From IMG/VR virus record IMGVR_UViG_3300029922_000018: a DNA stretch of 64,000 bases, one strand, 5' to 3'. Shown one piece after another: positions 18,644-63,383 of this stretch. This DNA is from an uncultured virus (IMG/VR IMGVR_UViG_3300029922_000018) (Duplodnaviria > Heunggongvirae > Uroviricota > Caudoviricetes). Position numbers and translations under genes: made by a program. The notes under the pieces are model-generated. The model ran no database searches. It saw only the letters and a list, made by a program, of their open reading frames with translations, and was not told the DNA's origin. Positions within the stretch are counted from its first letter, which is position 1; every line of letters starts with the position of its first letter.

Positions 18644-19510
18644 TTAAATAAGCGTCCAATCTCCTACTTTCTTATATTTTTTATTTATTACTTGGTATAC
18701 GGATGTCCTGTTTAGGCCATATTTCATTATAAAGTGATGTTTAAATCCACTAAACATTTCTCCCGTCTTTGTATTAATGAATGAGTGTATGGTTTTATCT
18801 TTTGGTTGTTTTAATTTCTGGCGAGTAGTGTAAGATATCTCCGGTCTATTTTTTGCCGATTGACTCATTTTTAATCTAGTTCGACTTGAATAAAAGCGTC
18901 CGACACTTTTTAATCCTATTCGAATTTTTGTTATTTCGCTATGCTTCCGTATTGGTCTATTTTTTGCTGACTTTTTCATTTTTGCTATTGTTTCTGGCGA
19001 ATGTCTCCGACCAGCATATCCCGGATTACCTCTTGCTATAAACGCAATATTATATACCATATCTCTTTCTGACTTGGCAATATCTAAAAATCGCTGTTCG
19101 ATTAACAATAGCGTTTTATTATTGGGAATGCTATATTCGACGATTACAAAACGAAATATATCTGGATTATATTTTCTCCATACATTTTGTAGATGTTTAT
19201 TATGATGTGTCCCTTTATTAAGTTTCCATACGTGTCTATACCAACGTTGCCTAACATTTTTAGCACTTCCAACATAATATTTACCATTAAGTTTATTTAT
19301 TATCTTATATATTCCGCTTATTTTTTGATTTATAATATTTTTCCATTCTGATAATGGATATTCTTTCCCTATTATTATAGTAGTATCGTTTGCCTCTGGC
19401 ACGTTGTTGTTCAAGCAACTCTTCTCTAGTTCGGTTGAGTTTTTTTCTTCCCATAATATAACATCTTTCTCTTGACTTTGGTGGTTGGTTAATGTATCAT
19501 TCATACACAC
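18644..19510 (-). CDS. GIY-YIG homing endonuclease with NUMOD3 repeats
   Basis: SGIYKIINKLNGKYYVGS, R.R, H.NKHLQ..W.KY, EQ..LD, YN; HSPETIAKM repeats. Confidence 0.9.
   Translation of the reverse strand: MCMNDTLTNHQSQEKDVILWEEKNSTELEKSCLNNNVPEANDTTIIIGKEYPLSEWKNIINQKISGIYKIINKLNGKYYVGSAKNVRQRWYRHVWKLNKGTHHNKHLQNVWRKYNPDIFRFVIVEYSIPNNKTLLLIEQRFLDIAKSERDMVYNIAFIARGNPGYAGRRHSPETIAKMKKSAKNRPIRKHSEITKIRIGLKSVGRFYSSRTRLKMSQSAKNRPEISYTTRQKLKQPKDKTIHSFINTKTGEMFSGFKHHFIMKYGLNRTSVYQVINKKYKKVGDWTLI
19305..19454 (-). CDS. Overlapping MGRKK-family basic peptide, copy 1 (49 aa)
   Basis: Hand translation MGRKKLNRTREELLEQQRARGKRYYYNNRERISIIRMEKYYKSKNKRNI*. Confidence 0.7.
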   Translation of the reverse strand: MGRKKLNRTREELLEQQRARGKRYYYNNRERISIIRMEKYYKSKNKRNI

Positions 19511-19562
19511 ATAAATATATCGTCAAAACAAAAAGAGTCAAACAAAGTGAAATTATTTTTAG

Positions 19563-19590
19563 TTGACATTTAAATTAACTTTGATATACT
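19563..19590 (+). promoter_or_regulatory. Sigma70-like promoter
   Basis: TTGACA-16-TATACT-10-ATG(19601). Confidence 0.8.
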
Positions 19591-19600
19591 ACCAAAAATT

Positions 19601-23023: not shown

Positions 23024-23999
23024 ATAACTGTATCTTGGTATATATAGAAGAAATATACTTCTCCATGTGTCGTATAATGGTTATTTCAGAACAATCAAAC
23101 ATCTGCGCCAGTGTCTTAACATCAAAATCGGTCGTGGTGATTGTTTGATATATTTTAACTGACCGCTCTAGCTGCAATAGTCTTAGTTTTGAGGAATATT
23201 TTGCAAACTCATCTTCGACATATCTAAAAGTATAATTATCACTACCATATATCTTACCCCTTAATATTCGCTGTAATATATGTTTTCTAATATTATACTT
23301 TCGATATGTATTTCCAATTCCACGTATCGTTTCGATAAATTCTCCATTTAAAGTAAATACTTTTATGTGTTTTCCAATTGTATCAGTTTTTATTATTGAC
23401 AATAACTTCCTCTGTTCTATAGACATTGGAACTCCTAGTTTATTCGATGGTTTTCCGGTGTTTGCTCGTGAAATTTTATCTTTACTTTCTTGTGACATTT
23501 TACGTCCCATCGATCCACGAGCTTCTTTAATTACGTTGAATAATATTCCGAATTTGTCATATTTTTTTATATACCAAGTTTCCAAATCGTCCTTTTCTAG
23601 TATCGGACATTCCGAAATAATATAAAATCTAAACATATCAATCCCATACTTGTTATATGAATTTTGCAAATATGTATTTGGGTGAGTATTTAGTCTAAGG
23701 TATCTTCTATGGTCATATATGCGTATGTATAAATTAAGTGCCGACCCAATATAGATTTTATTATTTCCCAGACAATGTATCAAATATACGCCGACCTTCT
23801 TTCTATAATAATCTCCCCACATTCCTATAATATCTATCGAGTGCTCGTTTCCTTTCGAGTCTTTTATGTTTATCGTAATAGCGCATTCGCTTGGAGTTGT
23901 TGGCAATTCGCTTTTCTTCAGTTGTGTTGTATTTTTTAATTCTTCCCATAATGTAACATCTTTCTCTTGACTTTGGTTTATTGTTGTGGTATCGTTCAT
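22995..23999 (-). CDS. GIY-YIG homing endonuclease with NUMOD3/NUMOD1-like C-terminus
   Basis: GVYLIHCLGNNKIYIGSA, HPNTYLQNSYNKYG, SQESKDKISRAN. Confidence 0.88.
   Translation of the reverse strand: MNDTTTINQSQEKDVTLWEELKNTTQLKKSELPTTPSECAITINIKDSKGNEHSIDIIGMWGDYYRKKVGVYLIHCLGNNKIYIGSALNLYIRIYDHRRYLRLNTHPNTYLQNSYNKYGIDMFRFYIISECPILEKDDLETWYIKKYDKFGILFNVIKEARGSMGRKMSQESKDKISRANTGKPSNKLGVPMSIEQRKLLSIIKTDTIGKHIKVFTLNGEFIETIRGIGNTYRKYNIRKHILQRILRGKIYGSDNYTFRYVEDEFAKYSSKLRLLQLERSVKIYQTITTTDFDVKTLAQMFDCSEITIIRHMEKYISSIYTKIQLFRKASSSEV
23803..23949 (-). CDS. Overlapping MGRKK-family basic peptide, copy 2 (48 aa)
   Basis: MGRIKKYNTTEEKRIANNSKRMRYYDKHKRLERKRALDRYYRNVGRLL*. Confidence 0.7.
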   Translation of the reverse strand: MGRIKKYNTTEEKRIANNSKRMRYYDKHKRLERKRALDRYYRNVGRLL

Positions 24000-26466
24000 A
24001 CACTATATACATATCATCGACTTTTAGAAAAGTAACAAAAAAGTAACAAATAATTTTAGTTGACTTATTATATGCGTCTGATATACTTTCAATATTATGA
24101 ATACCAAAGAACAAGAACAATTGCAATTAATTGCTGATTTAAGTATTAAAAATAGAAAATATGAAGCAGCATTAAAAAAGATTGCCAAATGGTTCGGTGA
24201 ATTTCCTCGAACGGGTAATTTTATCAATGGACATGAAACTTCCTATGAAGGCGACTATGGTTCTAATGGAGCCAGAGATTACATGAGAGCAATTGCAGAA
24301 CACGCATTAGAATAATATGATTACTCAATCTACAACTTGGAAATATCAATGTGATTCATGTGGCAATCACATAACAACCAATACCAATGGTATTCCTCCA
24401 TATTGGAAACTTATTAGCATATATCCGTTAATAAATAATATGCTGATATATAAAGAATTATTTTGTCCATCATGCTATAAAATGTATAAAGTTGCCAAGG
24501 ACAATATTAAAAAATCAATTAAAGGATAATAATATGTCATATCAAGTTATATCAACCACATTACCCACCGCAAAAAAAGAACATAAATGTATCTGGTGTG
24601 GAGAATCTATTTTAATAAATGAACTCCACGCCAAAGATGTTGGTGTATATGAATGTGATTTCCAAAGTAATAGATATCATATCGAATGTTATAATGCATC
24701 TCATACATATTTCAAAGAAAGTGGTGAAAATTGTTTTGAACCATATGATAATAAGCGTGGGTCTACCGAAGAAAAATCAAATATTAAATTAAACTCTTTA
24801 TTGGAAGAATTGACCGATAAAAATGAAGAATGTAATATTTGTTCGGGTAGTGGTAGTCCCGTATGTGATTGTATGTATAAAGAAAAATGTAACATATGTG
24901 GTAAGAGTTGGAGTCCAAGTCTTATAGAGTCTGGCACTTGTATCTTTTGTATCGTTAAAGAAAAAAACAAAATGATTGACCAACTAATCACGGAACGAAA
25001 TGCCCTTGAAGACTTAAATATAGCATATCAAAAACAATCATGGGATAAAGAAATTACACACATGAAGAATATTTAACACGCCGAAGTTTTTGCACTTGTA
25101 AGTTTGATTTTAGTAAAATTAAACCAGAAAATAGACAATATTATAAGTCAATGCCACCATCAGAATATCCAAAAAATTGAAACTTGTTTTAACATATCAA
25201 ATTACCGACCACTGCTCATATTCATATGATTGTAATATTCCATTTGAATATGAATCAAAAGAAAAGGCAGAATATGATTTACATGAAGAATGGCAACGAG
25301 TTCAAAAAGAAGAATTAGCCGAAACCATATATAAAAAGAAAAACGAACCTAAACAAAATGCCAGTAAAGAAAAATGGAATAGTTATTGGGAGTGGATGCC
25401 AAAAATTAATTATCATATTAAATTAGGAACTATTCCCGATTTAGAAGCATCTTCATTTACGGTTTGGAGAGATTGGGGAGATAAATATCTTAAATCTAAA
25501 GAATATGATGAACCATCAATCTTAACTTTGGACGAATGGTTTAACAAGAATAAAGAATAGGCTATGAATACAAACAAAAAATCATATAAATCCATACTTG
25601 ATAAACTTCTAATTAAAGAATATAATCCATTTTATTATGATTTTTCCGATGAAACCGACCATTGGAATAATATTCTAAATGAACTTGACTCCTTATATGA
25701 TAATACTAAAAAATGGAATAACATTCCAACTTTAAGAAAAAATATTCCTTTAATTATATCTCTCTTAAAAGAGATGGAGCCAGAGATTGTATCAATATAT
25801 AATAAACAACTTGAAGAATATAGTAAAGATGATGAATGAAGATTTAAAATCCGCAATTGAATTGTTGAAAGTGGCAATCTGCCCGAACTGTGATGGTGTT
25901 TGTGGCTGGTATGTGGGAAATAATTGTCAATATTCTACATATGCCTTTCCAGAACAAATCCAAGTTCAATGTCAATGGTGTTATGAGAAGAATGGATTAA
26001 TTAAAAAATATGAGTAAACATCTCAAATGTAAATGGAATATTGATAGTGAGTGGGATGTTCTTTCTAGATGTGGGACATGGCCAGATAATATAGAGGAAC
26101 GCCGTAAATTATATAATCACATAGCAAAATATGCAGAACAAGAAATTAACATTTACCGACCAATTAATATTGATGGGAAATATGATGAACGAATAAAATT
26201 TGAGGAAGATAGACTAAAAAATTTAAAAATTAGTGCCAATATATGAAACCAACTCAAAAGAATCTTGAATGTCTTAAAATGATGGGATGCACTCCCGAAG
26301 GTAAAGATTTGACTGCGTGGTGGAGATTTAATTGTGGATGGGCATTTGTGTTGGATGACATGCCAAGTATCAAAGTATTAATTGCTCGATTGATTAAATG
26401 GCATTATTCATGTGGATATAATGAAGCAAAGGAAGGACATCCTAGATTTTATAAAAATACAGAACT

Positions 26467-26901: not shown

Positions 26902-27682
26902 TCCATCCATTTGACACTTTAATTCTACCAGTAACCAATCCGGAGGAAACGCCCCTTGATAAATTATACTTCATTCTAAAATCGTATTGTGTCCCTACAA
27001 ATATAACATTTAAGATTTTATTTTGAAACCGGTGTATTATCGGACTTCTGAATTGAATTCCGTGGTGTGTTCTTACTTCTTTAGATTTGAAATAATTATT
27101 AGTTCTTTTACGTGCTATCTCTCTGGCACGTTCATTATTTTTCCAATACTTATTTAATGAACTGGTGCGATGGGATGTTCCTAATGGAGTATGACATCCC
27201 AGCGTTTGTAATTTAGATATCTTAGGATTGTTTTTATAATATAATTTGAGAGAGGCTATCATTTTTAATTTACATTCGCCTGTCAATCCTCCACCAGTCG
27301 CATTCGGATTAATATTGTAGCATTTATCTATATCTCGATTATCTAAATATGTCTGCTCAACTATACGCAACTTAATTAAATCTACTAGTTCAACAATCAC
27401 AAATTCGAACGCATTCTCACCGTGTTTATTCCAAGCCCGCTGTAAATATATATTATGATGGGTATTCTTACGCAGCGAATTTATATGTATATTCCATCTA
27501 CCGCCAATACCAGTAATATTATTGGCACTTCCAACATAATACTTTCCATTAACTTTATTTATTATCTTGTATATTCCGCTTATTTTTTCTTTTACGTTTA
27601 TAATATCGTTTGAGAGCGGCAGAGCGTTCTTCGGCTGCGTGTTCCCAATAATATCGCATTCTCCATTGTTTTTTAAGTTCAT
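26888..27682 (-). CDS. GIY-YIG homing endonuclease
   Basis: SGIYKIINKVNGKYYVGSA, HHNIYLQRAWNKHG, EQTYLD, YNI. Confidence 0.9.
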   Translation of the reverse strand: MNLKNNGECDIIGNTQPKNALPLSNDIINVKEKISGIYKIINKVNGKYYVGSANNITGIGGRWNIHINSLRKNTHHNIYLQRAWNKHGENAFEFVIVELVDLIKLRIVEQTYLDNRDIDKCYNINPNATGGGLTGECKLKMIASLKLYYKNNPKISKLQTLGCHTPLGTSHRTSSLNKYWKNNERAREIARKRTNNYFKSKEVRTHHGIQFRSPIIHRFQNKILNVIFVGTQYDFRMKYNLSRGVSSGLVTGRIKVSNGWTIIK

Positions 27683-27719
27683 GTTTTTCCTGTTCAGTTC
27701 TAAATTTTTTTCTTCCCAT
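27555..27719 (-). CDS. Overlapping MGRKK-family basic peptide, copy 3 (54 aa)
   Basis: MGRKKFRTEQEKHELKKQWRMRYYWEHAAEERSAALKRYYKRKRKNKRNIQDNK*. Confidence 0.7.
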   Translation of the reverse strand: MGRKKFRTEQEKHELKKQWRMRYYWEHAAEERSAALKRYYKRKRKNKRNIQDNK

Positions 27720-27826
27720 AATAGTTGTTATAACCTTTCATATTATAAATATAAACGACTTTATAAATAACTCGAAAATAATACGAAATAATTTTAGTTG
27801 ACATTTAGTTGGAATTTAGTAAGATA

Positions 27827-29728: not shown

Positions 29729-30013
29729 TTAGTTTTTCTGAACATGAGGAACTATAGGTTCCTTACCTAAAGCATTCCAATAAAATCCCTTGATATTGTT
29801 ATGCTTTAATCGTTCCGAAGTCTTTATTGACTTCAGATTGAAACCTAAATTAGTAGAACTACCAACATAATATTTCCCATTAACCTTATTTATTATCTTG
29901 TATATTCCGCTTATCTTTTCTTTTACGTTTGTAATATCGTTTAAGGGCGTTGACTCTTTCTTGTTTGGCGTGTTTCCAGTAGTATCGCATTCTTTTAATG
30001 TTGTTTCGTTCAT
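29729..30013 (-). pseudogene. Truncated GIY-YIG endonuclease
   Basis: Near-identical to 26888-27682 through GIYKIINKVNGKYYVGS, then unrelated tail lacking catalytic Arg/Glu. Confidence 0.8.
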
Positions 30014-30053
30014 TGATTTCTTCTTTCGTTCGATTTAATTTTTTTCTTCCCAT
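29886..30053 (-). CDS. Overlapping MGRKK-family basic peptide, copy 4 (55 aa)
   Basis: MGRKKLNRTKEEINERNNIKRMRYYWKHAKQERVNALKRYYKRKRKDKRNIQDNK*. Confidence 0.7.
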   Translation of the reverse strand: MGRKKLNRTKEEINERNNIKRMRYYWKHAKQERVNALKRYYKRKRKDKRNIQDNK

Positions 30054-30164
30054 AATGTTTATCGTAACCTTTCATATTATAAATATAAGCAGAAACGAAA
30101 ATAGTAACGAAATAATGAAAAAATATTTGACTTTTTATAAATAGTCGGTATACTATATAAAATT

Positions 30165-33579: not shown

Positions 33580-33924
33580 TCAATAAACTTTACAATCCCC
33601 ATCATTAAGTTTATATTCCAACAATTCATTTTTCCGTTCATTATATCTAAAAAATCTACAGTTTAAATTTTTTATAATGTTATTCATACGTATAACATCC
33701 TTCGATTTTAAACTGGTCTTCTCTATAGCATTTTTTAAATGATATTTATTCGTATAAATTTGTTCTCTCCCACAATCAGGACACTTTTTTGTCCATTTTT
33801 TCCAGTATTTTCGCATTCGTTCTTTTTTAATTCGTTTTCCGTGTTTGACATAGTATCGGGCGTCTCGGACACGCTTTTGTTCAATGAGTTCTTCTCTGGT
33901 TCGATTAAGCTTTTTTCTTCCCAT
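33580..33924 (-). pseudogene. MGRKK peptide (copy 5) fused in frame to an internally deleted Vsr/DUF559-like endonuclease
   Basis: Both ends align to 62424-63383; central Zn ribbons and catalytic EYDE..H absent. Confidence 0.75.
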
Positions 33925-33994
33925 AAATTTTTATTTGTTGTATTATTCATATACTATATAAATATAGTGTCGAAACATAAAACGACGGAATATT

Positions 33995-49176: not shown

Positions 49177-49317
49177 ATGGGAAGAAAACCAAAATCTAAA
49201 GAACATAAAGATGAAAAACGACGAATTAGGCAAGCAAGATATTATCAACGACATAAGAAAATCATATGCAAAAAACGGATGCAATCATATTGGGAAGGAA
49301 TTCAGCATAAAATGTGA
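49177..49317 (+). CDS. Overlapping MGRKK-family basic peptide, copy 6 (46 aa)
   Basis: MGRKPKSKEHKDEKRRIRQARYYQRHKKIICKKRMQSYWEGIQHKM*; AAAGGA 6 nt upstream. Confidence 0.7.
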   Translation: MGRKPKSKEHKDEKRRIRQARYYQRHKKIICKKRMQSYWEGIQHKM

Positions 49318-51223: not shown

Positions 51224-52865
51224 AAACAACCTATAGATTAGTAGAACAAGATAAATGTGGAAACTTAAAGACTCTATTCCATGGAATTAATGGGTCTCGG
51301 AAACTTCCTATTAATACATGGATACGTGCCGACATTAAAATGGTAAGTGAGGGAGTCAATGGTAAGAAATATTTGAGCGGATTCCATTCACTGGGAACAC
51401 GGGAAGAGTGTTTAAAATACTCTAAGAAGTTTAAAAATAAACAGCATAGATATGTTGTTCAAATTAAAATTAAAAATATACGGATGAAAAAGCATAGCCC
51501 GTCTAAAGTTTATTTGTCTGAATATATGATGATAGAAGAGCCATATCAATTAACTAGAATATGAAATACGTTAAATTAACGGCAAAAAAAGATACTTGGT
51601 TTAAAGAAGGAACGGAAGTATATGATTATGATTATCCATATTCAGATAAAAAACATATTACGTTAGAATATTGGAAAAAATCAATGGGTGATTGGGGAGG
51701 TGGTGGGATATATGTTTGTGGAATACGAGTATGCGACGATAATCCAAATGAGAATGGAATGGGATTTAAATCTGGAGATGAACGTGAAGATGGTGAGTGG
51801 TGTAGGTGTGATGAATTCAACGTGGAGATATTATGATTAACAAGATATACAAATATATTAATGAGTATAGGTCTAATTTGATAGTCCCAAGATATATCCA
51901 ACTAACAAGGAATGAAATGCAAAATTTAAATGATAGTCCAAGTCCAAATTTTAATTTTATAGAGTGTAATTTTAATGGTATTCCTGTGGTAGAGTCTGCA
52001 CTGGCAATTGAAAAACGAACATATCAGGAAAAGTCATTGAAGGCACATAATTTTACAATATTGGCCGAAAATGACTTATTTCCAAGTGATATAGATATGG
52101 AAATAAATGAATATCAAGATTATATATCTGGAAAATTGAAAACTGAGTTATTTTATAGACTATATGCTGATGATACTGTAATTTCCCATACATTTGAATG
52201 TGACCCTTGGAAATGGATAAAAGAAAAGCTACATCTTACCAAATGGTTTCCGGTTAAATTTAAAACTATTAAGATTGATGGTAAAGTATTATATCCCAAA
52301 TTAAATATCAAGTTTCCTCATAATACTCACGCCGTAAAATTTAAAATAAGTTGATAAAGAATTAAAAGTTGATATACTTCACAATATGACAAGAGAACAA
52401 CTTCAACACGGACAAGATATTTTAAAACAGATAAGCGATTTAAAATTACAATTGAATAATATTGATAATTATAATTTAGATTATCCGGTTGATTATATGG
52501 CGGCACCCCATATTAAGAAATATATGTTAGGACATATGGTAGATTTTAAATCACAATATAAAAAAGTATTGGAAAATCAAATCGATATTCTAAACGTCGA
52601 ATTTCAAAATTTATGAATATAGAATTAAAAGTAAAATTACAAAGAGCCATTAATAGAGTAATAATTGATGGTTGTGAAGATGGATTGTGGGAACAATTAA
52701 TTCATCCAAAGCTAATAGAACAAATGACCAACGCCGCAGAATTAGTATTTGACTCGGCACAAGATGCTCAAGAATATAACTTTCACGAAGAACAAAAATG
52801 AAAAAATAAATAAAAATAATCAGTATTTTATGATAAGTGTTTTATATTTATAAGGAGAACCAATT

Positions 52866-53012
52866 ATGGGAAGAAATAAAAAATATGAAACACTCGAACA
52901 GCAACGAGACGCTAAACAAAAAGATAACAGGTTGTATTATCAACGACACAAAAAAGAACTCTCCGAAAAGAGAATGCGAGCATACTGGAAAAAAGTTTCG
53001 AAAAATGTGTAA
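52866..53012 (+). CDS. Overlapping MGRKK-family basic peptide, copy 7 (48 aa)
   Basis: MGRNKKYETLEQQRDAKQKDNRLYYQRHKKELSEKRMRAYWKKVSKNV*; AAGGAG Shine-Dalgarno. Confidence 0.72.
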   Translation: MGRNKKYETLEQQRDAKQKDNRLYYQRHKKELSEKRMRAYWKKVSKNV

Positions 53013-53958
53013 GTTATGTTGGCAAGATAAATTTATAGAAGAGGCAATTGAGTTGCATGGAGATAAATTTACATATGATGATGTTAAATATACTAATAGT
53101 CTCACACCAGTCAGTATAAAATGCAACTCATGTGGAAAGACGTTTAAACAGACACCAAGCAATCATTTAAGTGGTAAAGGATGTCGTGATTGTTCCTTTA
53201 TAGCTATGGGACTTAAACGTAGATTAACAACCGATGTTTTTATATCTAAATCCGCTGAGATGCATAATAACAGTTACGATTATATATCTGTTGAATATGT
53301 CAATTCTAGAACACCAGTAACGATTAAGTGTAATACATGTGGAAAAATATTTGAGCAAACCCCAAACCAGCATCTCAGCGGACATGGATGTTCGGACTGT
53401 GCTATCCAATACCGAGCTAAGGCAATCAGTTCTAATACAGATGAATTTATTATTAAAGCAATCGGAATTCATGGTGATGATTATAATTATCAGTATGTGA
53501 AATATGAAAACGCAAAAACAAAAGTAGATATCATATGCAATAAATGCAGCACCAAATTCCTACAAACGCCGGTTGACCATTTAAGTGGAAGGGGATGTCC
53601 GAAATGCAAAACATCTAAAGGAGAGCTTAAAATATTAAAATTCTTACGGTTTAAGAATATACCATACATACATCAAAAGAAATATTCCGATTGTAGAAAT
53701 CCCAAAACAAATCTAAAATTGATATTTGATTTTTATATTCCAATTAAAAATATATTAATAGAATTTGATGGAAAGCAACATTATAAAAAAGGATGTAATC
53801 TTAGAGGTCATATTATGACGGATGAAGAATTTAAACGTCAAAAAATACGGGATAGAATTAAAAATGAATATTGTGTGAAAAATAACATACGATTGATTAG
53901 AATTTCGTATCGAGAGATAATGTCAATCGATAAAATATTGGAACGGAAATTAAAATAA
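52885..53958 (+). CDS. Homing endonuclease: repeated Zn ribbons + Vsr/DUF559-like nuclease (track start 52837)
   Basis: 3x C..C...F.QTP..HLSG.GC..C; SKGE, FDFYIP, IEFDGKQHY; paralog of 49211. Confidence 0.88.
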   Translation: MKHSNSNETLNKKITGCIINDTKKNSPKRECEHTGKKFRKMCKLCWQDKFIEEAIELHGDKFTYDDVKYTNSLTPVSIKCNSCGKTFKQTPSNHLSGKGCRDCSFIAMGLKRRLTTDVFISKSAEMHNNSYDYISVEYVNSRTPVTIKCNTCGKIFEQTPNQHLSGHGCSDCAIQYRAKAISSNTDEFIIKAIGIHGDDYNYQYVKYENAKTKVDIICNKCSTKFLQTPVDHLSGRGCPKCKTSKGELKILKFLRFKNIPYIHQKKYSDCRNPKTNLKLIFDFYIPIKNILIEFDGKQHYKKGCNLRGHIMTDEEFKRQKIRDRIKNEYCVKNNIRLIRISYREIMSIDKILERKLK

Positions 53959-54750: not shown

Positions 54751-54801
54751 TTGTATGGAGTTTTTTGTTGTTTGTTATATATTTATAAGGAGAACCTAAT
54801 T

Positions 54802-54966
54802 ATGGGACGAAAAAAAATATATGAAACAAGAGAACAACTTAAAATCGCCCAACGTAAGTGGCGGCGAGATTACTATGCAAAAAATAGAGAAGAATGTAAA
54901 CGAAAAAGAATGCAGAGTTACTTTAACTCTAAAAGAAAAAAGGGCAATGTGGCATCTAAAAAATAA
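54802..54966 (+). CDS. Overlapping MGRKK-family basic peptide, copy 8 (54 aa)
   Basis: MGRKKIYETREQLKIAQRKWRRDYYAKNREECKRKRMQSYFNSKRKKGNVASKK*; AAGGAG Shine-Dalgarno. Confidence 0.72.
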   Translation: MGRKKIYETREQLKIAQRKWRRDYYAKNREECKRKRMQSYFNSKRKKGNVASKK

Positions 54967-55741
54967 AGAGAAAAACAATGCACGTAGTAGAAATTTTAGA
55001 AAAAATAATACGCAATATTTTATAGATTATAGAAATAAAAATATAGAAAAGATAAAACAAAAAGATAAAGAATACAGATTTAAAACACGAGAACAGCGGG
55101 GAGAATATGAACGCACATACATAGCAACACATAAAGAATCGATAAGACGTAAACAATCATTATATTATTTAAAAAATAAAGAATATATAGATATTAGAAA
55201 TAAAGAATATTATAAAAATCATATATCCGAACGTAAAGCATACGCAAAAGACTGGGGAATAAAGAATAGAATTTTTAGAAATAAAAGAAATCAAGAGTAT
55301 TATCTAAAGAATAAGGATAAAATTAAGGAATATGCATCAAAAAATCGAGATAGAATAAACATGCGGAGACGCCTTAGGTTGCAGAGCGATATACCATATA
55401 AGTTATCATGTTATTTAAGAATTCGGATGTGGCAAGCAATACGAGGAAAAACTAAGGTTGGTTCTGCCGCCAAGGATTTAGGCTGCTCATTAAAATACTT
55501 TAAACATTATATTTCTGGTAAATTTATAACCGGAATGACGTGGGAGAATTATGGAAATGCTTGGCATCTTGACCATATTATTCCTCTTTCTTCCTTTGAT
55601 TTGACAAACAGAGAAGAATTTTTAAAAGCAGTTCATTATACTAACATTCAACCACTATGGGCTACGACGGCAATAGCTAGAGAAAATGGTGATATGACTT
55701 CTATTGGAAATTTAGAAAAAGGGGATAAAATAAGTTGTTAA
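54821..55741 (+). CDS. HNH homing endonuclease with YY.KNK helical repeats
   Basis: LGCS...F...I...F..GMTWENYG..WHLDHIIP...F...HYTNIQPLWA...N..KG. Confidence 0.88.
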   Translation: MKQENNLKSPNVSGGEITMQKIEKNVNEKECRVTLTLKEKRAMWHLKNKEKNNARSRNFRKNNTQYFIDYRNKNIEKIKQKDKEYRFKTREQRGEYERTYIATHKESIRRKQSLYYLKNKEYIDIRNKEYYKNHISERKAYAKDWGIKNRIFRNKRNQEYYLKNKDKIKEYASKNRDRINMRRRLRLQSDIPYKLSCYLRIRMWQAIRGKTKVGSAAKDLGCSLKYFKHYISGKFITGMTWENYGNAWHLDHIIPLSSFDLTNREEFLKAVHYTNIQPLWATTAIARENGDMTSIGNLEKGDKISC

Positions 55742-57680: not shown

Positions 57681-58277
57681 ATGAGTAATATACGAGAAAA
57701 TAATTTTGAGGGTGGTGGTGGCGGAGCCGGAGGAATGTCGGGACTTGGGGGTTCTTATGGGACATATTCGAGTCCAGATGCCGTGCAAGACCCAGACCAT
57801 TTTGAGGGAAGCAATGCTAATAAGGCAATGGGGTCTACTAGCAACACAAGTAAAGGGTTGGTTTCTCCTGCGGAGTTAAAGGCCGGAGTTAATCAAATAA
57901 TGTCAAAGAAAGAAACTCCAACCCCAGACGATGTAATAAGTGGTCTTCAGTATGAAATGGGTAAAATGATTAAAAAAGACAAGGCAGTGGCTAAGGGCAT
58001 TGTAATTGGAAATTTAAGAAAAGACCCACATTATTATCGGGATTTAAACCAACTCAACTCATCAGAAGATGCAATTACCCAAAATATACGAGAAAATATG
58101 AATACTGACGATATACGTGGCGGAGTTAATATTTCAGAAACTAAGAAAATATTTGCTGATATGTTTAAGGCACATGAAAACAAGTATGACGTTGATTCCC
58201 GCATTATAGATGCATTTAGGGAGTCGGTAGCCAATAAAAATAAACGGAAGCTTGATTTTAAAGATAAATTAGATTAA
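57681..58277 (+). CDS. Hypothetical, probably late/virion protein
   Basis: G..YEM...A..IV..NL.KDP.YY..L motif; TATTTATA at 57669-57676. Confidence 0.5.
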   Translation: MSNIRENNFEGGGGGAGGMSGLGGSYGTYSSPDAVQDPDHFEGSNANKAMGSTSNTSKGLVSPAELKAGVNQIMSKKETPTPDDVISGLQYEMGKMIKKDKAVAKGIVIGNLRKDPHYYRDLNQLNSSEDAITQNIRENMNTDDIRGGVNISETKKIFADMFKAHENKYDVDSRIIDAFRESVANKNKRKLDFKDKLD

Positions 58278-58319
58278 TAATATTGGCGTTATAGCTCATT
58301 GTGTTTATATTTATAATAC

Positions 58320-58961
58320 ATGAGCAATAACAAATACTTTATTAAAACTGGCGGGCTTAACGAGTTCGTATTAAATACGGATAATGAGTCTAACAAGAAC
58401 CCATTAAATCCAGCCGATGCCAATTCCGACACCAACACCCCCGCCGCCAAGGACAATCCACTCACAAGTCCTCAAGACGCAAAAGTAGTATCTCCAAATA
58501 TAATTGGAATTGCGGTTAAGGGGTCATCCACGAGCACCACCGCAACCGGTGAGGTTCCATCTAAAAATGCACTCTCAGGTTACGAGCCAATCGACAACGA
58601 AAAAAATAACAGTGAGATTGTCGATAAAACTCCTGAAAACTCCGAACTAAACGACCCATCGAAATTAAAAAATGATGAGCCGTCTACATCTGAAGAAGAA
58701 CATCCACATCAAATTCAGTCTGGCGAGACCGAAAAAAGCCACAAGACAGAGATGGATATCGACGCCTCAAATTCTGGTGGAGTTTCACCACAATCCGGCG
58801 AAGTTGACATTGAAGTGGATGAGAAATTGACGCCGGAACATGAAAAAGTCCAGAAGTTGGAATCTCTTTGTGAGACATATTCAAAACGTCCATTTCTCAC
58901 GATGCGTGAAGTGTTGTTACTTAACAAGTCCAAAAAAATTCTAAGCTCGATTAAAAAATAA
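58320..58961 (+). CDS. Acidic low-complexity hypothetical protein
   Basis: 213 aa ORF; TATTTATA at 58308-58315. Confidence 0.55.
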   Translation: MSNNKYFIKTGGLNEFVLNTDNESNKNPLNPADANSDTNTPAAKDNPLTSPQDAKVVSPNIIGIAVKGSSTSTTATGEVPSKNALSGYEPIDNEKNNSEIVDKTPENSELNDPSKLKNDEPSTSEEEHPHQIQSGETEKSHKTEMDIDASNSGGVSPQSGEVDIEVDEKLTPEHEKVQKLESLCETYSKRPFLTMREVLLLNKSKKILSSIKK

Positions 58962-59365: not shown

Positions 59366-59386
59366 TTTATAGTATATTTATAGTAT

Positions 59387-60433
59387 ATGAAACAAATATA
59401 TGTTATCACAGTAATATTAGCATTACTACTAGTAGTTGGATGTTCTACCATGACCGGTATCTTTGGGAAGTCGTCAAATTCAGTAGCCAAGCAAGAATTA
59501 AAAATCACCCAATTAAACGATAAGATAGCCGATTTACAGGTGGCTAAGATAAACCAAGTGTCACAGTTGAGTTTTGGGGTTGATGTTGCTCTCCAAAAAA
59601 TAACCAACGCTCCAATTGAGGTTGTAGTAGCCAAGGAACTTAACTCACGAGTAGAGTCTATTGCTGGCCTTCCTCCACTAGAACAGCAAAAAGAAATGTT
59701 TAAAATGGTTTCCGACCTAATCGCTACAAATGCCATTGGCATAAGAGAATTGGCAGTAAAGGATGCCCAATTAGAGGCAATACAACAAGAAGAGAAACTT
59801 TTATTGGCTCAGAAAAATACCGAACTAAGCAATACGTTAATATTATCAAAAACAATTGCATTGCAGGCTGATACAACGAAAAGTAAATTGGATGAATATA
59901 GGGGTTGGTTTGGTCTTAATGCAGTTTGGATGGGACTTAAACAATTTACAACTACGTCGTTCTGGGTATTGATTGGGATTGGAATTTTGTTCTTATTGCT
60001 TAGGGTATTGGCAACTGCAAATCCAATTGCCGGAGCAATATTTAGTGTAGTTGATGTATTTTTTTCATGGATAGTAAATACAATTAAACTGATTGCTCCG
60101 AAGGCACTTTCTATCGCTAACACAGTTGAGAAAGATGTGTATGGGGCAACTAAGAGTGCATTATCATCCATCATTGACTCCGTCGAGACTGTTAAGTTAA
60201 CTTCCGCCGCCGCTGGGAAACCGGCCACAATTGAAGACTTACTAAACGTAGCAGAAGCGTCTATGTCTCCGGCTGATAAGGCTTTAATAGAACAAATAAA
60301 ACTTGAGATGAATTGGACAACTGCTATAGTTGTGCCGACGACAACATCGCTGATTGCTACCGTTCCGGTAACATCATCCATATCAATACCAACGCCGCAT
60401 ATAACATCATCCATATCTGGTAGTGGAATATAA
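59387..60433 (+). CDS. Lipoprotein with coiled coil and TM segment (possibly spanin-like)
   Basis: Lipobox VVGC, coiled coil, hydrophobic FWVLIGIGILFLLLRVL. Confidence 0.5.
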   Translation: MKQIYVITVILALLLVVGCSTMTGIFGKSSNSVAKQELKITQLNDKIADLQVAKINQVSQLSFGVDVALQKITNAPIEVVVAKELNSRVESIAGLPPLEQQKEMFKMVSDLIATNAIGIRELAVKDAQLEAIQQEEKLLLAQKNTELSNTLILSKTIALQADTTKSKLDEYRGWFGLNAVWMGLKQFTTTSFWVLIGIGILFLLLRVLATANPIAGAIFSVVDVFFSWIVNTIKLIAPKALSIANTVEKDVYGATKSALSSIIDSVETVKLTSAAAGKPATIEDLLNVAEASMSPADKALIEQIKLEMNWTTAIVVPTTTSLIATVPVTSSISIPTPHITSSISGSGI

Positions 60434-60817
60434 ATAATAAAATAACTTTACTAATACTAACTAATAAGTTATAATCAACCCATTATGAAATACTATATAA
60501 AAGACCCAAACTCTAGTAATGTAATGAAATTTAAAACGTATGACGAGACGGTTCTATTTTTAGAGAAATTCTGCACTCTAAAATTTAAAAAAACTAGAGC
60601 GGAATATATGAACGAAGCAGTTGCTATTGGATACTCTCCAGATGACCGAGAAGCTACCCAGTTTGTTAGATTGATGTCTGAAGCGGTTGAAGTTGGTGTA
60701 ATCCGTGAAAACTCATTAATGAGAACTGACATCACTTCTATAGAACGATATAATAAGCCGGAATTCGGTGATGGAGTCATTTCTCCTAGATATAAGTAAG
60801 TCGTATTTTAATACGTT

Positions 60818-62422
60818 ATGATTGACTTCAAATGGTCGACCCCATACAAAAATGAGGGAAAATGGAGGAGAGAATATATAATTCCACCCGAAATGTTGTC
60901 TGGATTTTTTGGCTTCTGGAAGAAGAATAAATTTTCACTTTTGTCTCAGGGATTTAGCGTCAGTAAAAACAAGTTTGGAAAATGGATTTTTTACGAAACT
61001 AAGCCCGACATTAAATCATTCAAAAAATTCAATTGTGAGGATGCATCTTCAACCCCTACTCCAGAATCTCAAGTTATATTTAGTTTACCCGAATATAAGT
61101 TAAAAAATACGGATGGATTACGTCCTTGGCAAATTGACGCCGCCGGAAGGTTGGTATCTGCAATTAATTATTGGGGAGGTGCCGCTGACGGTTCTGACTT
61201 AGGCACAGGAAAAACATTCAGCGCAATAGGAACTGTTCGAGAATTAAGTGTCCCCTTTGTGATTGTCTGTCCCAAAGCGGTTATAAATCAATGGAGAAAA
61301 GTAATTGATAATCACTTCAATTTATCGTCAAACTGTAAAGGAATTATTAATTATGAATTATTAATTAGGGGAAGAAAGGATAGTGACATCGCATCATTCG
61401 TATTAAAAAGAGAATTGAAACGACATAAATTCATATGGAAAATCCCTAAGAATTCGATAATTATTTGGGATGAAAGCCACAAACTTAAAAATTTCAAAAC
61501 GAAGTCGTCTAAATGTTGTATAGAAGCATTTAAACAAGGATTTAAACAGATTTTCCTGTCAGCAACTATGGCACAGTCACCATTAGATTTGCGAACGATA
61601 GGAACTTGTTTAAAAATGTTTAAAACATCAAAGGAATACTACGACTGGACGGATAAGCATGGCGTATATAAAGATACTTGGGGACCGAGGTTTTCGGGAG
61701 ATGTAGAAGTTCTCAAAAAATTGAATAAATACTTATTCGAGGAACGAGGAGTTCGGAAATGTCGGGATGAAATTCCAAATTTTCCAGAATGTGAAGTTAT
61801 TATACAAGCATACGACATAGACGAGGCGAAAGTAACAGAAATAAATAAAAATTTTAAAGAAATGTCAGCCGAATTGAAGCGATTGAATTCATTATTGAAA
61901 AATGAAGAAAGCCAACTAGTAATTCGACTTAGATATCGACAAAGAATAGAAATATTAAAAGTTGATTTGTTTGTAGATTTAGCCAACGAAGCATTAGACG
62001 CTGGTATGTCTGTAATATTGTTTGTAAATTATACGGAAACCATCAACACATTATCCGAAAGATTAAACTCCAGTTGTATTTATTCCGGTCAAGTAAGCAG
62101 TTCAGAAAAACAAAAAAATATAGATAATTTTCAGTCTAATAAAGAAAAAATATTTATAGTTCAAGTTAAATCTGGTGGGACCGGCTTAAATTTGGGAGAT
62201 ACTGATGGGAATCATCCACGGTGCTCGATAATATCTCCAGATGATTCTGCACGAGATATTAGACAAGCATGTGGTCGGGGTTGGAGAGAAAATAGCAAAA
62301 GTAAGTCGATAGTTAAAATACCATTTGCAAATGGAACTATCGAGGCTTCGGTAGTTGATAATATGAATACTAAAACAAACAATATAGATATTATAAATGA
62401 TGGAATGCTAAAAATAATATAA
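60818..62422 (+). CDS. SNF2/SF2 helicase
   Basis: LRPWQ, DLGTGKT, WDESH, LSAT, GGTGLNL, QACGR..R. Confidence 0.9.
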   Translation: MIDFKWSTPYKNEGKWRREYIIPPEMLSGFFGFWKKNKFSLLSQGFSVSKNKFGKWIFYETKPDIKSFKKFNCEDASSTPTPESQVIFSLPEYKLKNTDGLRPWQIDAAGRLVSAINYWGGAADGSDLGTGKTFSAIGTVRELSVPFVIVCPKAVINQWRKVIDNHFNLSSNCKGIINYELLIRGRKDSDIASFVLKRELKRHKFIWKIPKNSIIIWDESHKLKNFKTKSSKCCIEAFKQGFKQIFLSATMAQSPLDLRTIGTCLKMFKTSKEYYDWTDKHGVYKDTWGPRFSGDVEVLKKLNKYLFEERGVRKCRDEIPNFPECEVIIQAYDIDEAKVTEINKNFKEMSAELKRLNSLLKNEESQLVIRLRYRQRIEILKVDLFVDLANEALDAGMSVILFVNYTETINTLSERLNSSCIYSGQVSSSEKQKNIDNFQSNKEKIFIVQVKSGGTGLNLGDTDGNHPRCSIISPDDSARDIRQACGRGWRENSKSKSIVKIPFANGTIEASVVDNMNTKTNNIDIINDGMLKII

Positions 62423-62468
62423 AATGTTTCGTCGATTTATGTTTCGACACTATACTTATATAGTATAT

Positions 62469-63383
62469 ATGAATAATACAACAATCAATAAAAAATTATG
62501 GGAAGAAAAAAGCTTAATCGAAGTAAATCCGAACTTGTCGAGCAAAAACGTATCCGAGATGCCCGATACTATACCAAGCATGGAGAACAAATTAAAAAAG
62601 AACGAATGCGAAAATACTGGGAAAAGGTGGATAAGAAGTTGTCCAAATTGTAAATCTACTATAACATACAAATCAAAAGAAATTCTTAATAAAGCAATAA
62701 AAAACAATTCCCACCACTGTAAAAAATGCAGTAATATTGGCCGCACATCTCCATTTAAAGGAATTAGGAAAACATATATAGGAACTTGTTTAGACTGTGG
62801 ATATATAAGAGAACTTCTACACGCATCAAATTATTCTACATCCAAAAAGAAAGGGTTTCGGTGTGAGAAATGTGCGAATAAAAAGAAACAAATAACAATA
62901 AATTCACCCACATATATTAAACCAACCATAAAGCATGAAGAATATAATAGATTATGTCCAGACTGCCACGAAGTTGTATATTATACATCAAAAAGAATCC
63001 TAGATAATGCTAAATATAAAAACAGTAAATGTAGAAAATGTGCCGACAAAGAACATCGGTTAAGATGTATAGAAAAAAGACAAAATATATATCCAATATA
63101 TAATAAAATGGCGTGTTGTATATTCGAAGATATAAACAAATCACTAGGTTGGAACTTACAACATGCTACAAACGGAAAAGAATATAAAATAATCGGGTAT
63201 TTTTTAGATGCATATGATAAGGATAGAAATATAGTAGTTGAATACGACGAACCACATCATTATTATAAAGATGGGACTATGCGTAAAAAGGACATTCGAA
63301 GACAGGAAGAAATAACAAAACATTTAAATTGTAAATTTTACAGAATAAAACACAATCAAGACTGGAAAGATGTAATACTATGA
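62469..63383 (+). CDS. Homing endonuclease: Zn ribbons + Vsr/DUF559-like nuclease (track start 62424)
   Basis: CP.C...C.KC repeats; QHA.NG.E, YFLDAYD, VEYDEPHH, KD..RQ..I...LNC.F.RI. Confidence 0.85.
   Translation: MNNTTINKKLWEEKSLIEVNPNLSSKNVSEMPDTIPSMENKLKKNECENTGKRWIRSCPNCKSTITYKSKEILNKAIKNNSHHCKKCSNIGRTSPFKGIRKTYIGTCLDCGYIRELLHASNYSTSKKKGFRCEKCANKKKQITINSPTYIKPTIKHEEYNRLCPDCHEVVYYTSKRILDNAKYKNSKCRKCADKEHRLRCIEKRQNIYPIYNKMACCIFEDINKSLGWNLQHATNGKEYKIIGYFLDAYDKDRNIVVEYDEPHHYYKDGTMRKKDIRRQEEITKHLNCKFYRIKHNQDWKDVIL
62498..62653 (+). CDS. Overlapping MGRKK-family basic peptide, copy 9 (51 aa)
   Basis: MGRKKLNRSKSELVEQKRIRDARYYTKHGEQIKKERMRKYWEKVDKKLSKL*. Confidence 0.7.
   Translation: MGRKKLNRSKSELVEQKRIRDARYYTKHGEQIKKERMRKYWEKVDKKLSKL

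What the first reader, a model, noticed from the sequence alone, without database searches (positions are those of the whole stretch)
19305..62653. Nine nuclease cassettes share a hidden overlapping 'MGRKK' peptide gene across three unrelated nuclease superfamilies
Seen: nine short basic ORFs at 19454(-), 23949(-), 27719(-), 30053(-), 33924(-), 49177(+), 52866(+), 54802(+) and 62498(+), all beginning TTATGGGA(A/C)GA. Their consensus is MGR(K)K...E......R..(R)YY..H/N......RM..YW/Y, 46-55 aa in the eight unfused copies. Each overlaps the 5' end of an endonuclease gene, and in 8 of 9 the nuclease is exactly in the +1 frame (offsets 19, 19, 34, 37, 40, -50, -56, -74 nt; all 1 mod 3). The partners are GIY-YIG (4), Zn-ribbon Vsr/DUF559-like (4) and HNH (1). 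The odd N-terminal 'LWEEK...ECE.TG' shared by these unrelated nucleases is the +1 shadow of the peptide. Both frames stay open over the overlap in very AT-rich DNA. Inference: a portable promoter-plus-peptide module is grafted onto different homing endonucleases. The peptide could be an inhibitor/antitoxin, an autorepressing DNA- or RNA-binding helix, or a translational attenuator. I know of no described system of this form.
Basis: partly seen in the sequence, partly recalled or inferred. Interest (0 to 1): 0.92.

Follow-up and report, generated by a model that had tools for sequence, protein, structure and literature searches.

The report
Tiny regulator gene overlapping homing endonucleases
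Nine selfish DNA-cutting genes in this phage share a portable front end (a promoter box, paired short DNA repeats and a hidden 50-codon gene read one base out of frame) that most likely lets each cassette control its own expression.

Summary
TTATGGGAMGA occurs 9 times (0.17 expected by chance). Each site starts a basic 46-55 codon ORF (MGRKK..RYY..H..RM..YW) that overlaps a nuclease gene in the +1 frame. One copy is an in-frame, internally deleted remnant.

The layout recurs in 66 distinct viral-contig loci and 294 protein clusters, nearly all stand-alone ~50-aa ORFs. Both frames are under selection. The peptide frame keeps its residues through many synonymous codons. The +1 frame is purged of stops (9 seen, 73-143 expected) and always carries its own ATG. 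I found no shared slippery site, so this is true dual coding of two genes, not a frameshifted fusion.

The peptide has no Pfam, PHROG, NCBIfam or PDB relative and models as one long helix. Upstream lie a TATATTTAT box, which also heads ordinary genes of this phage with an ATG 5-6 nt behind it, and two tandem 15-nt units with a variable 4-nt core. That core covaries with peptide residues 17 and 21, which sit on one helix face.

Best reading, about 0.55: a cassette-private DNA-binding autoregulator, working like R-M controller proteins but not a member of that family. My literature searches found no description. This scan met the same module before on other DNA.

The parts
19511..19545 (-). Cassette 1 control region: two 15-nt tandem units (19531-19545, 19516-19530; core TTGAC) and the TATATTTAT box (19511-19519)
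19305..19454 (-). Cassette 1 peptide gene, 49 aa
18644..19504 (-). Cassette 1 GIY-YIG + NUMOD3 nuclease, +1 frame; its ATG lies 6 nt after the box and 50 nt before the peptide ATG
24005..24050 (-). Cassette 2 control region: TTTGTTAC twice (24043-24050, 24032-24039; 11-nt spacing) and the box variant TATGTATAT (24005-24013)
23803..23949 (-). Cassette 2 peptide gene, 48 aa
22995..23999 (-). Cassette 2 GIY-YIG + NUMOD3 nuclease, 334 aa, +1 frame; ATG 5 nt after the box
27745..27788 (-). Cassette 3 control region: TTTCG twice (27784-27788, 27773-27777) and the TATATTTAT box (27745-27753); a 13-codon mini-ORF in +2 starts at 27741
27555..27719 (-). Cassette 3 peptide gene, 54 aa
26888..27682 (-). 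Cassette 3 GIY-YIG nuclease, 264 aa, +1 frame; ATG at +37
30079..30112 (-). Cassette 4 control region: TTTCGTT twice (30106-30112, 30094-30100; 12-nt spacing) and the box (30079-30087)
29886..30053 (-). Cassette 4 peptide gene, 55 aa
29729..30013 (-). Cassette 4 truncated GIY-YIG remnant, 94 aa, +1 frame; ATG at +40, after a +1-frame TAA at codon 7
33958..33992 (-). Cassette 5 control region: two 15-nt units (33978-33992, 33963-33977; core CGTC/CGAC) and the box (33958-33966)
33580..33924 (-). Cassette 5: peptide fused in frame by a 1-nt difference to an internally deleted zinc-ribbon nuclease remnant, 114 aa; the old +1 ORF (33735-33950) now stops after 71 codons
49125..49159 (+). Cassette 6 control region: two 15-nt units (49125-49139, 49140-49154; core CTAC) and the box (49151-49159)
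49177..49317 (+). Cassette 6 peptide gene, 46 aa
49211..50455 (+). Cassette 6 DUF4379 zinc-finger nuclease candidate, 414 aa, +1 frame; ATG at +34
52822..52851 (+). Cassette 7 control region: AGTATTTTAT / AGTGTTTTAT (52822-52831, 52836-52845) and the box (52843-52851), followed by AAGGAG and the peptide ATG
52866..53012 (+). Cassette 7 peptide gene, 48 aa, with a Shine-Dalgarno-like AAGGAG 8 nt upstream
52885..53958 (+). Cassette 7 DUF4379 zinc-finger nuclease candidate, +1 frame; ATG at +19 (ORF listing starts it at GTG 52837)
54778..54786 (+). Cassette 8 TATATTTAT box, followed by AAGGAG; no clear paired repeat found upstream
54802..54966 (+). Cassette 8 peptide gene, 54 aa (the site with ATGGGACGA)
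54821..55741 (+). Cassette 8 nuclease candidate, 306 aa, +1 frame; ATG at +19. It has internal YY..NKE repeats and a C-terminal WHLDH...N domain of a large unnamed family related to P0080
62425..62459 (+). Cassette 9 control region: two 15-nt units (62425-62439, 62440-62454; core CGTC/CGAC, same class as cassette 5) and the box variant TATACTTAT (62451-62459)
62498..62653 (+). Cassette 9 peptide gene, 51 aa
62469..63383 (+). Cassette 9 CPxC zinc-ribbon nuclease candidate, +1 frame; likely ATG 9 nt after the box (the longest ORF starts at 62424, inside the repeats)

Best explanation
Each cassette is a self-contained two-gene unit behind its own promoter.

Shown by computation:
- A ~50-codon gene for a basic protein of about one long helix (MGRKKLNRT..R.R..RYY..H/N..K.M.RYW) and a homing-endonuclease gene are written over the same DNA. 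The nuclease is one base ahead (+1 frame).
- Both frames are under selection.
- The nuclease has its own ATG, anywhere from 74 nt before to 142 nt after the peptide ATG.
- The module (box, paired repeats, peptide gene) is joined to several unrelated nuclease families.

Inferred:
- The peptide is a sequence-specific DNA-binding autoregulator private to its cassette.
- Residues 17 and 21, on one face of the helix, read the variable 4-bp core of two tandem 15-nt units. These would lie near -35..-32 and -20..-17, directly against the TATATTTAT box.
- The invariant basic arm (MGRKK) and R20, R23, Y24 and Y25 contact the constant T-rich part.
- Occupancy most likely shuts the promoter once peptide has accumulated, which caps production of a nuclease that is dangerous to the phage and its host. 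Activation, or a mixed switch as in R-M controller proteins, is not excluded.
- Because the box is followed within 2-9 nt by an ATG, the mRNA is probably leaderless or nearly so. Both start codons therefore sit within one ribosome footprint of the 5' end. This, together with the fact that only +1 can stay open under this amino-acid composition, explains why the overlap is long and always +1.
For: Peptide frame translated. In 68 aligned loci, R20 is kept in 63 through 6 codons, Y25 in 68 (TAC 30, TAT 38), L6 in 65 through 5 codons and T9 in 60 through 4 codons. The ATG is invariant. A profile of the nine peptides finds 294 clusters at E<=1e-3. Of the best 150, 107 are <=62 aa and start with MG.

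+1 frame translated from near the start. From nt +22 to the peptide stop there are 9 +1-frame stops in 72 loci, and 65 of 72 loci are open. Expectation is 143 stops under the window's codon usage, or 73 under the peptide ORFs' own usage. After xTG codons the next base is A in only 4 of 185 cases. All 63 unfused loci have an ATG in the open +1 stretch.

Portable module. The 66 partners are 30 GIY-YIG-type, 9 NUMOD3-only, 3 HNH, 3 DUF4379, 1 DUF723 and 20 unassigned.

Control region. Two 15-nt units match at >=7 of their first 10 nt in 46 of 72 loci. The core covaries with peptide columns 21 (z=7.9) and 17 (z=6.8), while nine other high-entropy columns have z<=2.3: TCAC goes with S21 in 8 of 8, CG[AT]C with D21 in 5 of 5, TAAT with L/V in 4 of 4. 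In 16 independent nearest pairs, columns 17 and 21 again rank first (p=0.0035 and 0.013, uncorrected). The paired repeats are absent from the same box where it heads ordinary genes.

Box as a gene-start signal. Of 19 exact boxes in the window, 12 are followed by an ATG within 2-8 nt (background 0.14, p=1e-6), and 7 of those open ORFs of 52-348 aa. In 36 anchored loci the first ATG after the box is the nuclease-frame ATG in 21 and the peptide ATG in 8.

Fold. AlphaFold2 on 115 sequences gives a single helix over residues 10-50, pLDDT 93.

In-frame fusion L062 keeps the operator units but has +1-frame stops, as expected if +1 is needed only when the genes are separate.
Against: - No DNA binding, transcript start or translation product was observed, and no RNA run holding this phage could be listed.
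- The covariation rests on 35 of 72 loci that an automatic anchor placed reliably. The 12-nt-spaced class and four out-of-register peptides were dropped.
- Relatedness is only partly controlled. In the paired test, pairs with different cores are also the more diverged ones, and the p-values are not corrected for about 30 columns.
- A 15-bp spacing puts two sites on nearly opposite faces of the helix, which is unusual for cooperative binding.
- One lone helix is not a known sequence-specific DNA-binding fold unless it oligomerises.
- In copies 52866 and 54802 an AAGGAG lies between the box and the ATG, which fits a leader of 14-15 nt rather than a leaderless mRNA.
- Cassette 8 shows no clear paired repeat.
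- Peptide genes persist beside truncated nucleases (30053, 33924, L018, L057). This could mean the peptide has a role beyond controlling the nuclease.
Confidence: 0.55

Rival explanations
1. Programmed +1 frameshift or transcript slippage. The peptide is the N-terminal domain of the nuclease. Most ribosomes stop and release the short form, and a minority shift to make the fusion, in the manner of IS1/IS3 OrfA/OrfAB (that comparison is recalled, not from a call).
For: Conservation in the peptide frame ends at about codon 44, just where the GIY-YIG domain begins in +1 (codons 44-47 in most GIY-YIG partners). In-frame fusions exist and look intact: L062 (351 aa), P0080 (228 aa) and P0126 (335 aa). 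The window copy 33924 is fused by a 1-nt difference.
Against: The +1 frame is kept open from near the peptide start in 65 of 72 loci, which a late shift would not require. Every unfused locus has its own +1 ATG. No shared homopolymer or slippery motif exists at the hand-off, and many loci have no A/T run of 5 or more there. In L070, L079 and L080 the conserved Y40-W41 codons and the GIY codons abut or overlap, leaving no room for a shift site. The frame relation is +1, not the -1 of the IS systems. Only L011, L062 and L064 of 66 loci, plus about 3 of the 150 listed proteins, are fused.
Confidence: 0.08
2. The peptide acts on RNA or on translation. Either it is an arginine-rich helix that binds the cassette's own mRNA, or its translation simply competes with or occludes the nearby nuclease start codon and so throttles the nuclease.
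For: The two start codons lie within 5-50 nt of each other in most loci. The leader is very short or absent. The peptide is highly basic, with conserved aromatic residues.
Against: Pure start competition does not need 45 conserved residues. The elements that covary with residues 17 and 21 lie upstream of the box, so they are probably not transcribed, and they are direct repeats rather than hairpins. Short-overlap loci (L019, L026, L073; nuclease ATG at +121 to +142) keep the peptide although the starts are far apart.
Confidence: 0.15
3. The peptide is a protein-level inhibitor or antitoxin that binds the nuclease until it is needed.
For: The genes are tightly linked and co-expressed. The peptide is retained beside every nuclease.
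Against: The same peptide family accompanies at least five unrelated catalytic or DNA-binding architectures, so there is no common surface to bind. The nuclease's own N-terminal extension is unconserved shadow sequence and is absent in short-overlap loci. Peptide specificity positions track the upstream DNA, not the nuclease type: TCAC/S21 modules occur with GIY-YIG, DUF723 and unassigned partners.
Confidence: 0.07
4. The peptide serves the phage or the mobile element in some way unrelated to cassette control, for example by marking or protecting DNA near the insertion site, or by aiding recombination during homing. The repeats would then be its binding sites for that purpose.
For: Peptide genes and repeats persist where the nuclease is truncated or deleted (30053, 33924, L018, L057). 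Repeats of one cassette class occur downstream of the box (L049).
Against: In most loci the repeats sit at a fixed distance directly against the promoter box. Exact copies of the units occur nowhere else in the 64-kb window except at their own cassette, or at the sister cassette.
Confidence: 0.15

Closest known systems
Controller (C) proteins of type II restriction-modification systems, e.g. C.PvuII
   Same: A small regulator gene lies just upstream of, and overlaps, the endonuclease gene and is co-transcribed with it. Paired operator boxes sit at its own promoter. [quoted passage not shown] Translation of the two overlapping genes is independent (PMC2997769: passages read; PMC2175313: listing and start of abstract only).
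   Different: C proteins are helix-turn-helix proteins with inverted-repeat C-boxes (recalled). Here the protein is a ~50-aa predicted single helix with no family match. The repeats are direct, 15 or 12 nt apart. The overlap covers up to the whole small gene rather than about 20 nt. The partner is a homing endonuclease with no methyltransferase.
Free-standing homing endonuclease genes of T4-type phages (seg, mob) and I-TevI autorepression
   Same: GIY-YIG and HNH nuclease genes sit between conserved genes of a T4-like phage (DNA polymerase 36% identical to a Microcystis myophage), each with its own promoter and limited expression. PMC2988022 was seen as a listing only. I-TevI binding an operator at its own promoter is recalled.
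   Different: In the known cases the nuclease itself, or RNA hairpins, do the regulating. No separate trans-acting micro-protein gene overprinted on the nuclease start has been described, as far as my searches reach.
IS1 / IS3-family OrfA-OrfAB programmed frameshifting
   Same: A short N-terminal basic protein and a longer enzyme are encoded in two overlapping frames. Rare natural in-frame fusions exist.
   Different: There the frame is -1, with a slippery heptamer and a stimulatory structure, and the enzyme has no start of its own (recalled). Here the frame is +1, no shared slip site exists, and the nuclease has its own ATG with its frame kept open from near the start.
Out-of-frame homing endonuclease genes overprinted on inteins or host genes
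   Same: A homing endonuclease shares DNA with another protein-coding frame, often +1.
   Different: There the endonuclease is overprinted on a host protein or intein. Here a dedicated small gene of the mobile cassette itself overlaps the nuclease's 5' end and travels with it.

Membership tests
R-M controller (C) proteins | Helix-turn-helix (Xre-like) fold of about 70-100 aa | tested here: not met
   AlphaFold2 gives one helix over residues 10-50 of 51. There is no Pfam, NCBIfam or PHROG match.
R-M controller (C) proteins | Paired inverted-repeat C-boxes at its own promoter | tested here: not met
   Paired boxes exist, but they are direct 15-nt (or 12-nt) tandem units.
R-M controller (C) proteins | Gene immediately upstream of, and overlapping, the endonuclease gene in one transcription unit | tested here: met
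   There is overlap in all 9 window copies and all 63 unfused loci, with a single promoter-like box. Co-transcription is inferred.
R-M controller (C) proteins | Leaderless regulated transcript | tested here: inconclusive
   An ATG lies 2-9 nt after the box in most loci, but no transcript ends were seen, and two copies have a 14-15 nt leader with AAGGAG.
IS1/IS3-type programmed frameshift genes | Conserved slippery site at the junction, with the downstream frame reachable only by the shift | tested here: not met
   No shared motif. The downstream frame has its own ATG and is open from near the start. The frame is +1.
Ribbon-helix-helix regulators | N-terminal beta-strand followed by two helices; RHH profile match | tested here: not met
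   No strand in the model and no Pfam RHH hit. A separate RHH-like gene does exist at 43564-43722.
Free-standing GIY-YIG homing endonucleases (partner genes) | GIY-YIG catalytic domain with a NUMOD-type DNA-binding tail | tested here: met
   In the window, 3 partners score above the Pfam cut-off and 1 remnant scores below it, and 2 have NUMOD3. Of the 66 related partners, 30 are GIY-YIG-type. Cleavage and homing were not testable.
HNH / His-Me finger endonucleases (partner of 54802) | HNH profile match | tested here: inconclusive
   No Pfam, PHROG or NCBIfam hit. It aligns at 2e-28 to P0080, which hits PHROG 1035 'endonuclease VII'.
bZIP-like basic-helix dimers | Continuous helix with an N-terminal basic region and a C-terminal dimerising zipper | not testable with these tools
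   A continuous helix with a basic N-half is predicted. The heptad pattern is irregular by eye. Oligomeric state and DNA contact could not be tested.

The most novel reading that the evidence does not exclude
These peptides are the smallest known class of sequence-specific transcription regulators. Each is a ~50-residue single helix whose DNA specificity is set by two residues (17 and 21) that read a 4-bp core. The class has diversified into many orthogonal regulator-operator pairs, at least six in this one phage. Each pair is overprinted on the 5' end of a different homing endonuclease, so that every selfish cassette carries a private, crosstalk-free on/off switch. The ratio of regulator to nuclease would be fixed by competition between two start codons on a leaderless mRNA.
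Probability: 0.35. Interest if true: 0.85.

Novelty: new variant of a known kind. Interest (0 to 1): 0.72.

Why it matters
Homing endonucleases are thought to be controlled by the host genome's own signals or by the nuclease itself. A dedicated regulator that travels with the cassette would explain how such genes move between unrelated phage genomes while staying quiet enough to be tolerated.

The module is also one of the clearest natural cases of long, selected dual coding. About 130-150 nt are read in two frames in hundreds of lineages. The peptide frame is under amino-acid selection, and the +1 frame is constrained at least to stay open.

If the residue-to-base correspondence holds, the family offers a set of tiny orthogonal operator-regulator pairs. 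It would also be a simple system for studying how a single helix reads DNA.

For annotation, these ~50-codon genes are missed or labelled hypothetical, and the nuclease starts are often placed wrongly.

Tried and rejected
- Homodimer prediction of the peptide (2 copies, alignment A4): no verdict. It counts neither for nor against.
- RNA evidence: no RNA holder was listed for window 48000-57000, so no reads were laid.
- Fold and sequence look-ups of the peptide. Foldseek against the PDB found no match. A PDB sequence profile gave only E=0.8 to a helical-hairpin vicilin fragment. Pfam, PHROG and NCBIfam gave nothing. The best named cluster in the ESM Atlas scored 0.89 (viral, 14% of members with an AT-hook); this is below the 0.9 mark and is a lead only.
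- Cultured phages: tblastn of two peptides against 50,697 GenBank phage records found nothing.
- Megablast of the polymerase region also found nothing.
- Cellular genomes: only 2 contigs of metagenome-assembled bins.
- Codon-position entropy on the nine window copies alone was only weakly informative (1.06, 0.93, 1.18), because the copies are saturated. The 68-locus set was needed.
- First attempt at search for related loci with the nine-peptide alignment failed for lack of a conserved stretch. It was re-run with a closer alignment.
- Relation of the peptide to the internal YY..NKE repeats of the HNH-family partner. hhalign gave probability 9.8%. The best HMM repeat hit in the window protein (10.7 bits) was no better than shuffles (up to 8.8 bits). 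Only P0061 (a second copy at 23.6 bits) and the BLASTP alignment with P0080 suggest common ancestry, so I keep this as a lead.
- Extra operator copies elsewhere in the window: none beyond chance one-mismatch hits.

Full report
**The observation.** The 11-mer TTATGGGAMGA occurs nine times in the window, at exactly the places listed, against 0.17 expected. Each ATG opens a basic ORF of 46-55 codons. The copy at 33924 instead runs on for 114 codons. In eight copies a long nuclease-type ORF lies in the +1 frame.

Pfam confirms GIY-YIG for the partners at 19454, 23949 and 27719, and, below the curated cut-off, for the 94-aa remnant at 30053. The partners at 49177 and 52866 carry DUF4379 treble-clef zinc fingers. 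The partners at 62498 and 54802 have no Pfam nuclease domain. The 54802 partner aligns at 2e-28 with P0080, which matches PHROG 1035 'endonuclease VII', and its C-terminal domain belongs to a large unnamed family (311 proteins at E<=1e-5). The 33924 copy is an internally deleted remnant of a 62498-type gene.

The window comes from a distant T4-like phage. Its family-B DNA polymerase is 36% identical to that of a Microcystis myophage, and GC content is about 32%. A near-identical viral fragment, G001, holds eight of the sites.

**Is the layout more than chance, and is it kept elsewhere?** A profile of the nine peptides, searched against 1.84 billion representative proteins, found 294 clusters at E<=1e-3. 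Of the best 150, 107 are <=62 aa and begin with MG. A few are long in-frame fusions to nuclease-like proteins: P0080 (228 aa), P0126 (335 aa) and P0061 (232 aa).

A scan of viral contigs returned 79 loci, 66 of them distinct. In all 63 unfused loci the long ORF is in +1, while +2 closes within 1-33 codons. The partners are 30 GIY-YIG-type, 9 NUMOD3-only, 3 HNH, 3 DUF4379, 1 DUF723 and 20 unassigned.

No cultured-phage record matched. Only two contigs of metagenome bins did.

**Which frames are read?** The peptide frame is clearly under amino-acid selection. In 68 loci aligned without gaps (4 of 72 were dropped as out of register), R20 is kept in 63 through six codons, R23 in 58 through six, L6 in 65 through five and Y25 in all 68 (TAC 30, TAT 38). 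The +1 translation has higher entropy (2.13 against 1.50), and its commonest residues are almost always carried by one codon.

The +1 frame is nevertheless kept open. From nt +22 to the peptide stop there are 9 stops in 72 loci, with 65 loci open. Synonymous resampling predicts 143 stops under the window's codon usage, or 73 under the peptide ORFs' own usage. The base after xTG codons is A in only 4 of 185 cases.

The seven exceptions are instructive:
- In L010, L015 and L027 the stop lies immediately before the nuclease ATG at +40.
- L019, L026 and L073 start the nuclease late, at +121 to +142.
- L062 is an in-frame fusion that no longer needs +1.

Every unfused locus has an ATG in the open +1 stretch. 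Both frames are therefore translated, and the nuclease has its own start, whose position ranges from -74 to +142.

**Frameshift fusion versus two genes.** The hand-off is sharp. Peptide conservation ends near codon 44, and the GIY-YIG domain begins at +1 codon 44-47 in most such partners. That pattern, and the rare fusions, made a programmed shift worth testing. Four things argue against it:
- the selected openness of +1 from near the start;
- the universal +1 ATG;
- the lack of any shared slippery run at the hand-off;
- loci such as L079, where the Y40-W41 codons and the GIY codons abut.

The relation is +1, not the -1 of IS elements (recalled). I put the fusion model at about 0.08.

**The control region.** Upstream of each cassette is a box, TATATTTAT or a one-base variant. 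In this phage the same box also precedes ordinary genes, with an ATG 5-6 nt behind it (57681, 58320, 59387, 43722, 32400). Of 19 exact boxes, 12 have an ATG starting 2-8 nt later, against a background of 0.14 (p about 1e-6).

In 36 related loci where the box could be anchored, the first ATG after it is the nuclease-frame ATG in 21 and the peptide ATG in 8. It is a +2 ATG in 5 (in 4 of those it abuts the box, gap 0) and another peptide-frame ATG in 2. I infer a promoter giving leaderless or very short-leader mRNA. This is not shown, and copies 52866 and 54802 instead have AAGGAG and a 14-15 nt leader.

Specific to the cassettes, and absent from the ordinary promoters, are two tandem 15-nt units directly upstream of the box. 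Each is T-rich with a variable 4-nt core. If the box is a -10 element, the cores would lie near -35..-32 and -20..-17. In 46 of 72 loci the two units match at >=7 of their first 10 nt. A second class, with RM at residues 21-22, has 11-12-nt spacing.

**Link between peptide and repeats.** In the 35 loci with a reliable anchor and in-register peptide, mutual information between the core 4-mer and each peptide column singles out column 21 (z=7.9) and column 17 (z=6.8). Nine other columns of similar entropy have z<=2.3. TCAC goes with S21 in 8 of 8, CG[AT]C with D21 in 5 of 5, TAAT with L/V in 4 of 4, and TAAC with Q in 2 of 2.

Positions 17 and 21 are one helical turn apart. In 16 phylogenetically independent nearest pairs, columns 17 and 21 again rank first (p=0.0035 and 0.013, one-sided and uncorrected). 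Pairs with different cores are also the more diverged ones, so this is suggestive rather than proof.

AlphaFold2 on 115 sequences predicts one continuous helix over residues 10-50, with pLDDT 93. No fold or family match exists.

**Mechanism proposed.** The peptide is a cassette-private DNA-binding autoregulator. Its helix face carrying residues 17 and 21 reads the core. The invariant arm MGRKK and the conserved R and Y residues contact the constant T-rich part, which in the proximal unit is the promoter box itself.

I favour repression, because the box works without any upstream element at ordinary genes. Activation or a dual switch is possible.

The long +1 overlap follows from two constraints. 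Both starts must be near the 5' end of a very short-leader mRNA, and only +1 can be kept open under this amino-acid composition: P(+2 open) is <=0.008 and the +2 frame carries 4-9 stops per copy.

The nine cassettes in this window fall into at least six core classes. 33924 and 62498 share one class.

**Comparison with what is known.** The closest working analogue is the controller (C) protein of R-M systems. It is a small autoregulator gene overlapping the nuclease gene, with paired boxes and a leaderless regulated transcript, and the two genes are translated independently (PMC2997769, passages read). Membership fails, however: there is no helix-turn-helix, the repeats are direct rather than inverted, and the partner is a homing endonuclease.

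My literature searches found no description of such a module on homing endonucleases. Supplements were not consulted.

Earlier notes of this scan describe the same module on other DNA and reach the same reading. Those notes gave me the C-protein comparison. The tests reported here are my own.

**Caveats.**
- Nothing here shows binding, transcription starts or translation directly.
- The covariation set is a subset chosen by an automatic anchor.
- The persistence of intact peptide genes beside decayed nucleases leaves room for a role beyond nuclease control.

Noticed in passing
window 43564-43763 (-): A 52-aa ORF (MKKKVIPKCSIQISQEV...) looks by eye like a ribbon-helix-helix regulator. It sits 6 nt behind a TATATTTAT box and two exact adjacent TTTCTACGAT repeats, at the head of a leftward gene block that includes a glycosyltransferase. 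The repeat differs by one base from unit 1 of the 49177 cassette. Pfam gave no hit.
   Followed up: partly
window 57667-57683, 58306-58322, 59373-59389, 32400-32415 (-): TATATTTAT followed 5-6 nt later by the ATG of ORFs of 156-348 aa. This appears to be a general gene-start architecture of this phage, which suggests leaderless or near-leaderless mRNAs (12 of 19 boxes, background 0.14).
   Followed up: partly
window 1840-2557 (+): A tenth nuclease-like gene (228 aa, Cys-rich, with an HNH-like C-terminus by eye) lies behind a GATATTTATA box but has no MGRKK peptide gene. It was not run against any profile library.
   Followed up: no
window 27741 (-), 30075 (-), 49162 (+): In three cassettes, mini-ORFs of 13, 21 and 3 codons start 2-3 nt after the box and end before or just inside the peptide gene. 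They share ATGAAAGG, which may simply be the peptide's ribosome-binding site.
   Followed up: no
window 54821-55741 (+); P0080; P0061: The HNH-family partner carries internal repeats (..YY.KNKE....K.YY..) that BLASTP aligns with the second half of the peptide domain of the in-frame fusion P0080. P0061 has two tandem copies of the peptide motif. The peptide may descend from this nuclease family's N-terminal repeat. The repeat match in the window protein itself was no better than in shuffled controls.
   Followed up: partly
window 33580-33950 (-) and 29729-30053 (-): Two cassettes have decayed nucleases (an internal deletion with a frame change, and a truncation to 94 aa) but intact peptide ORFs and control regions. 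L018 and L057 show the same pattern.
   Followed up: partly
L088, L089: The only two prokaryote-genome hits are short contigs in metagenome-assembled bins with bacterial labels. They are probably phage contigs binned with bacteria.
   Followed up: no
L049 (viral contig locus): In this locus the paired repeats (TTGTAAGG twice) lie between the box and the peptide ATG rather than upstream of the box. This is a variant operator placement.
   Followed up: no
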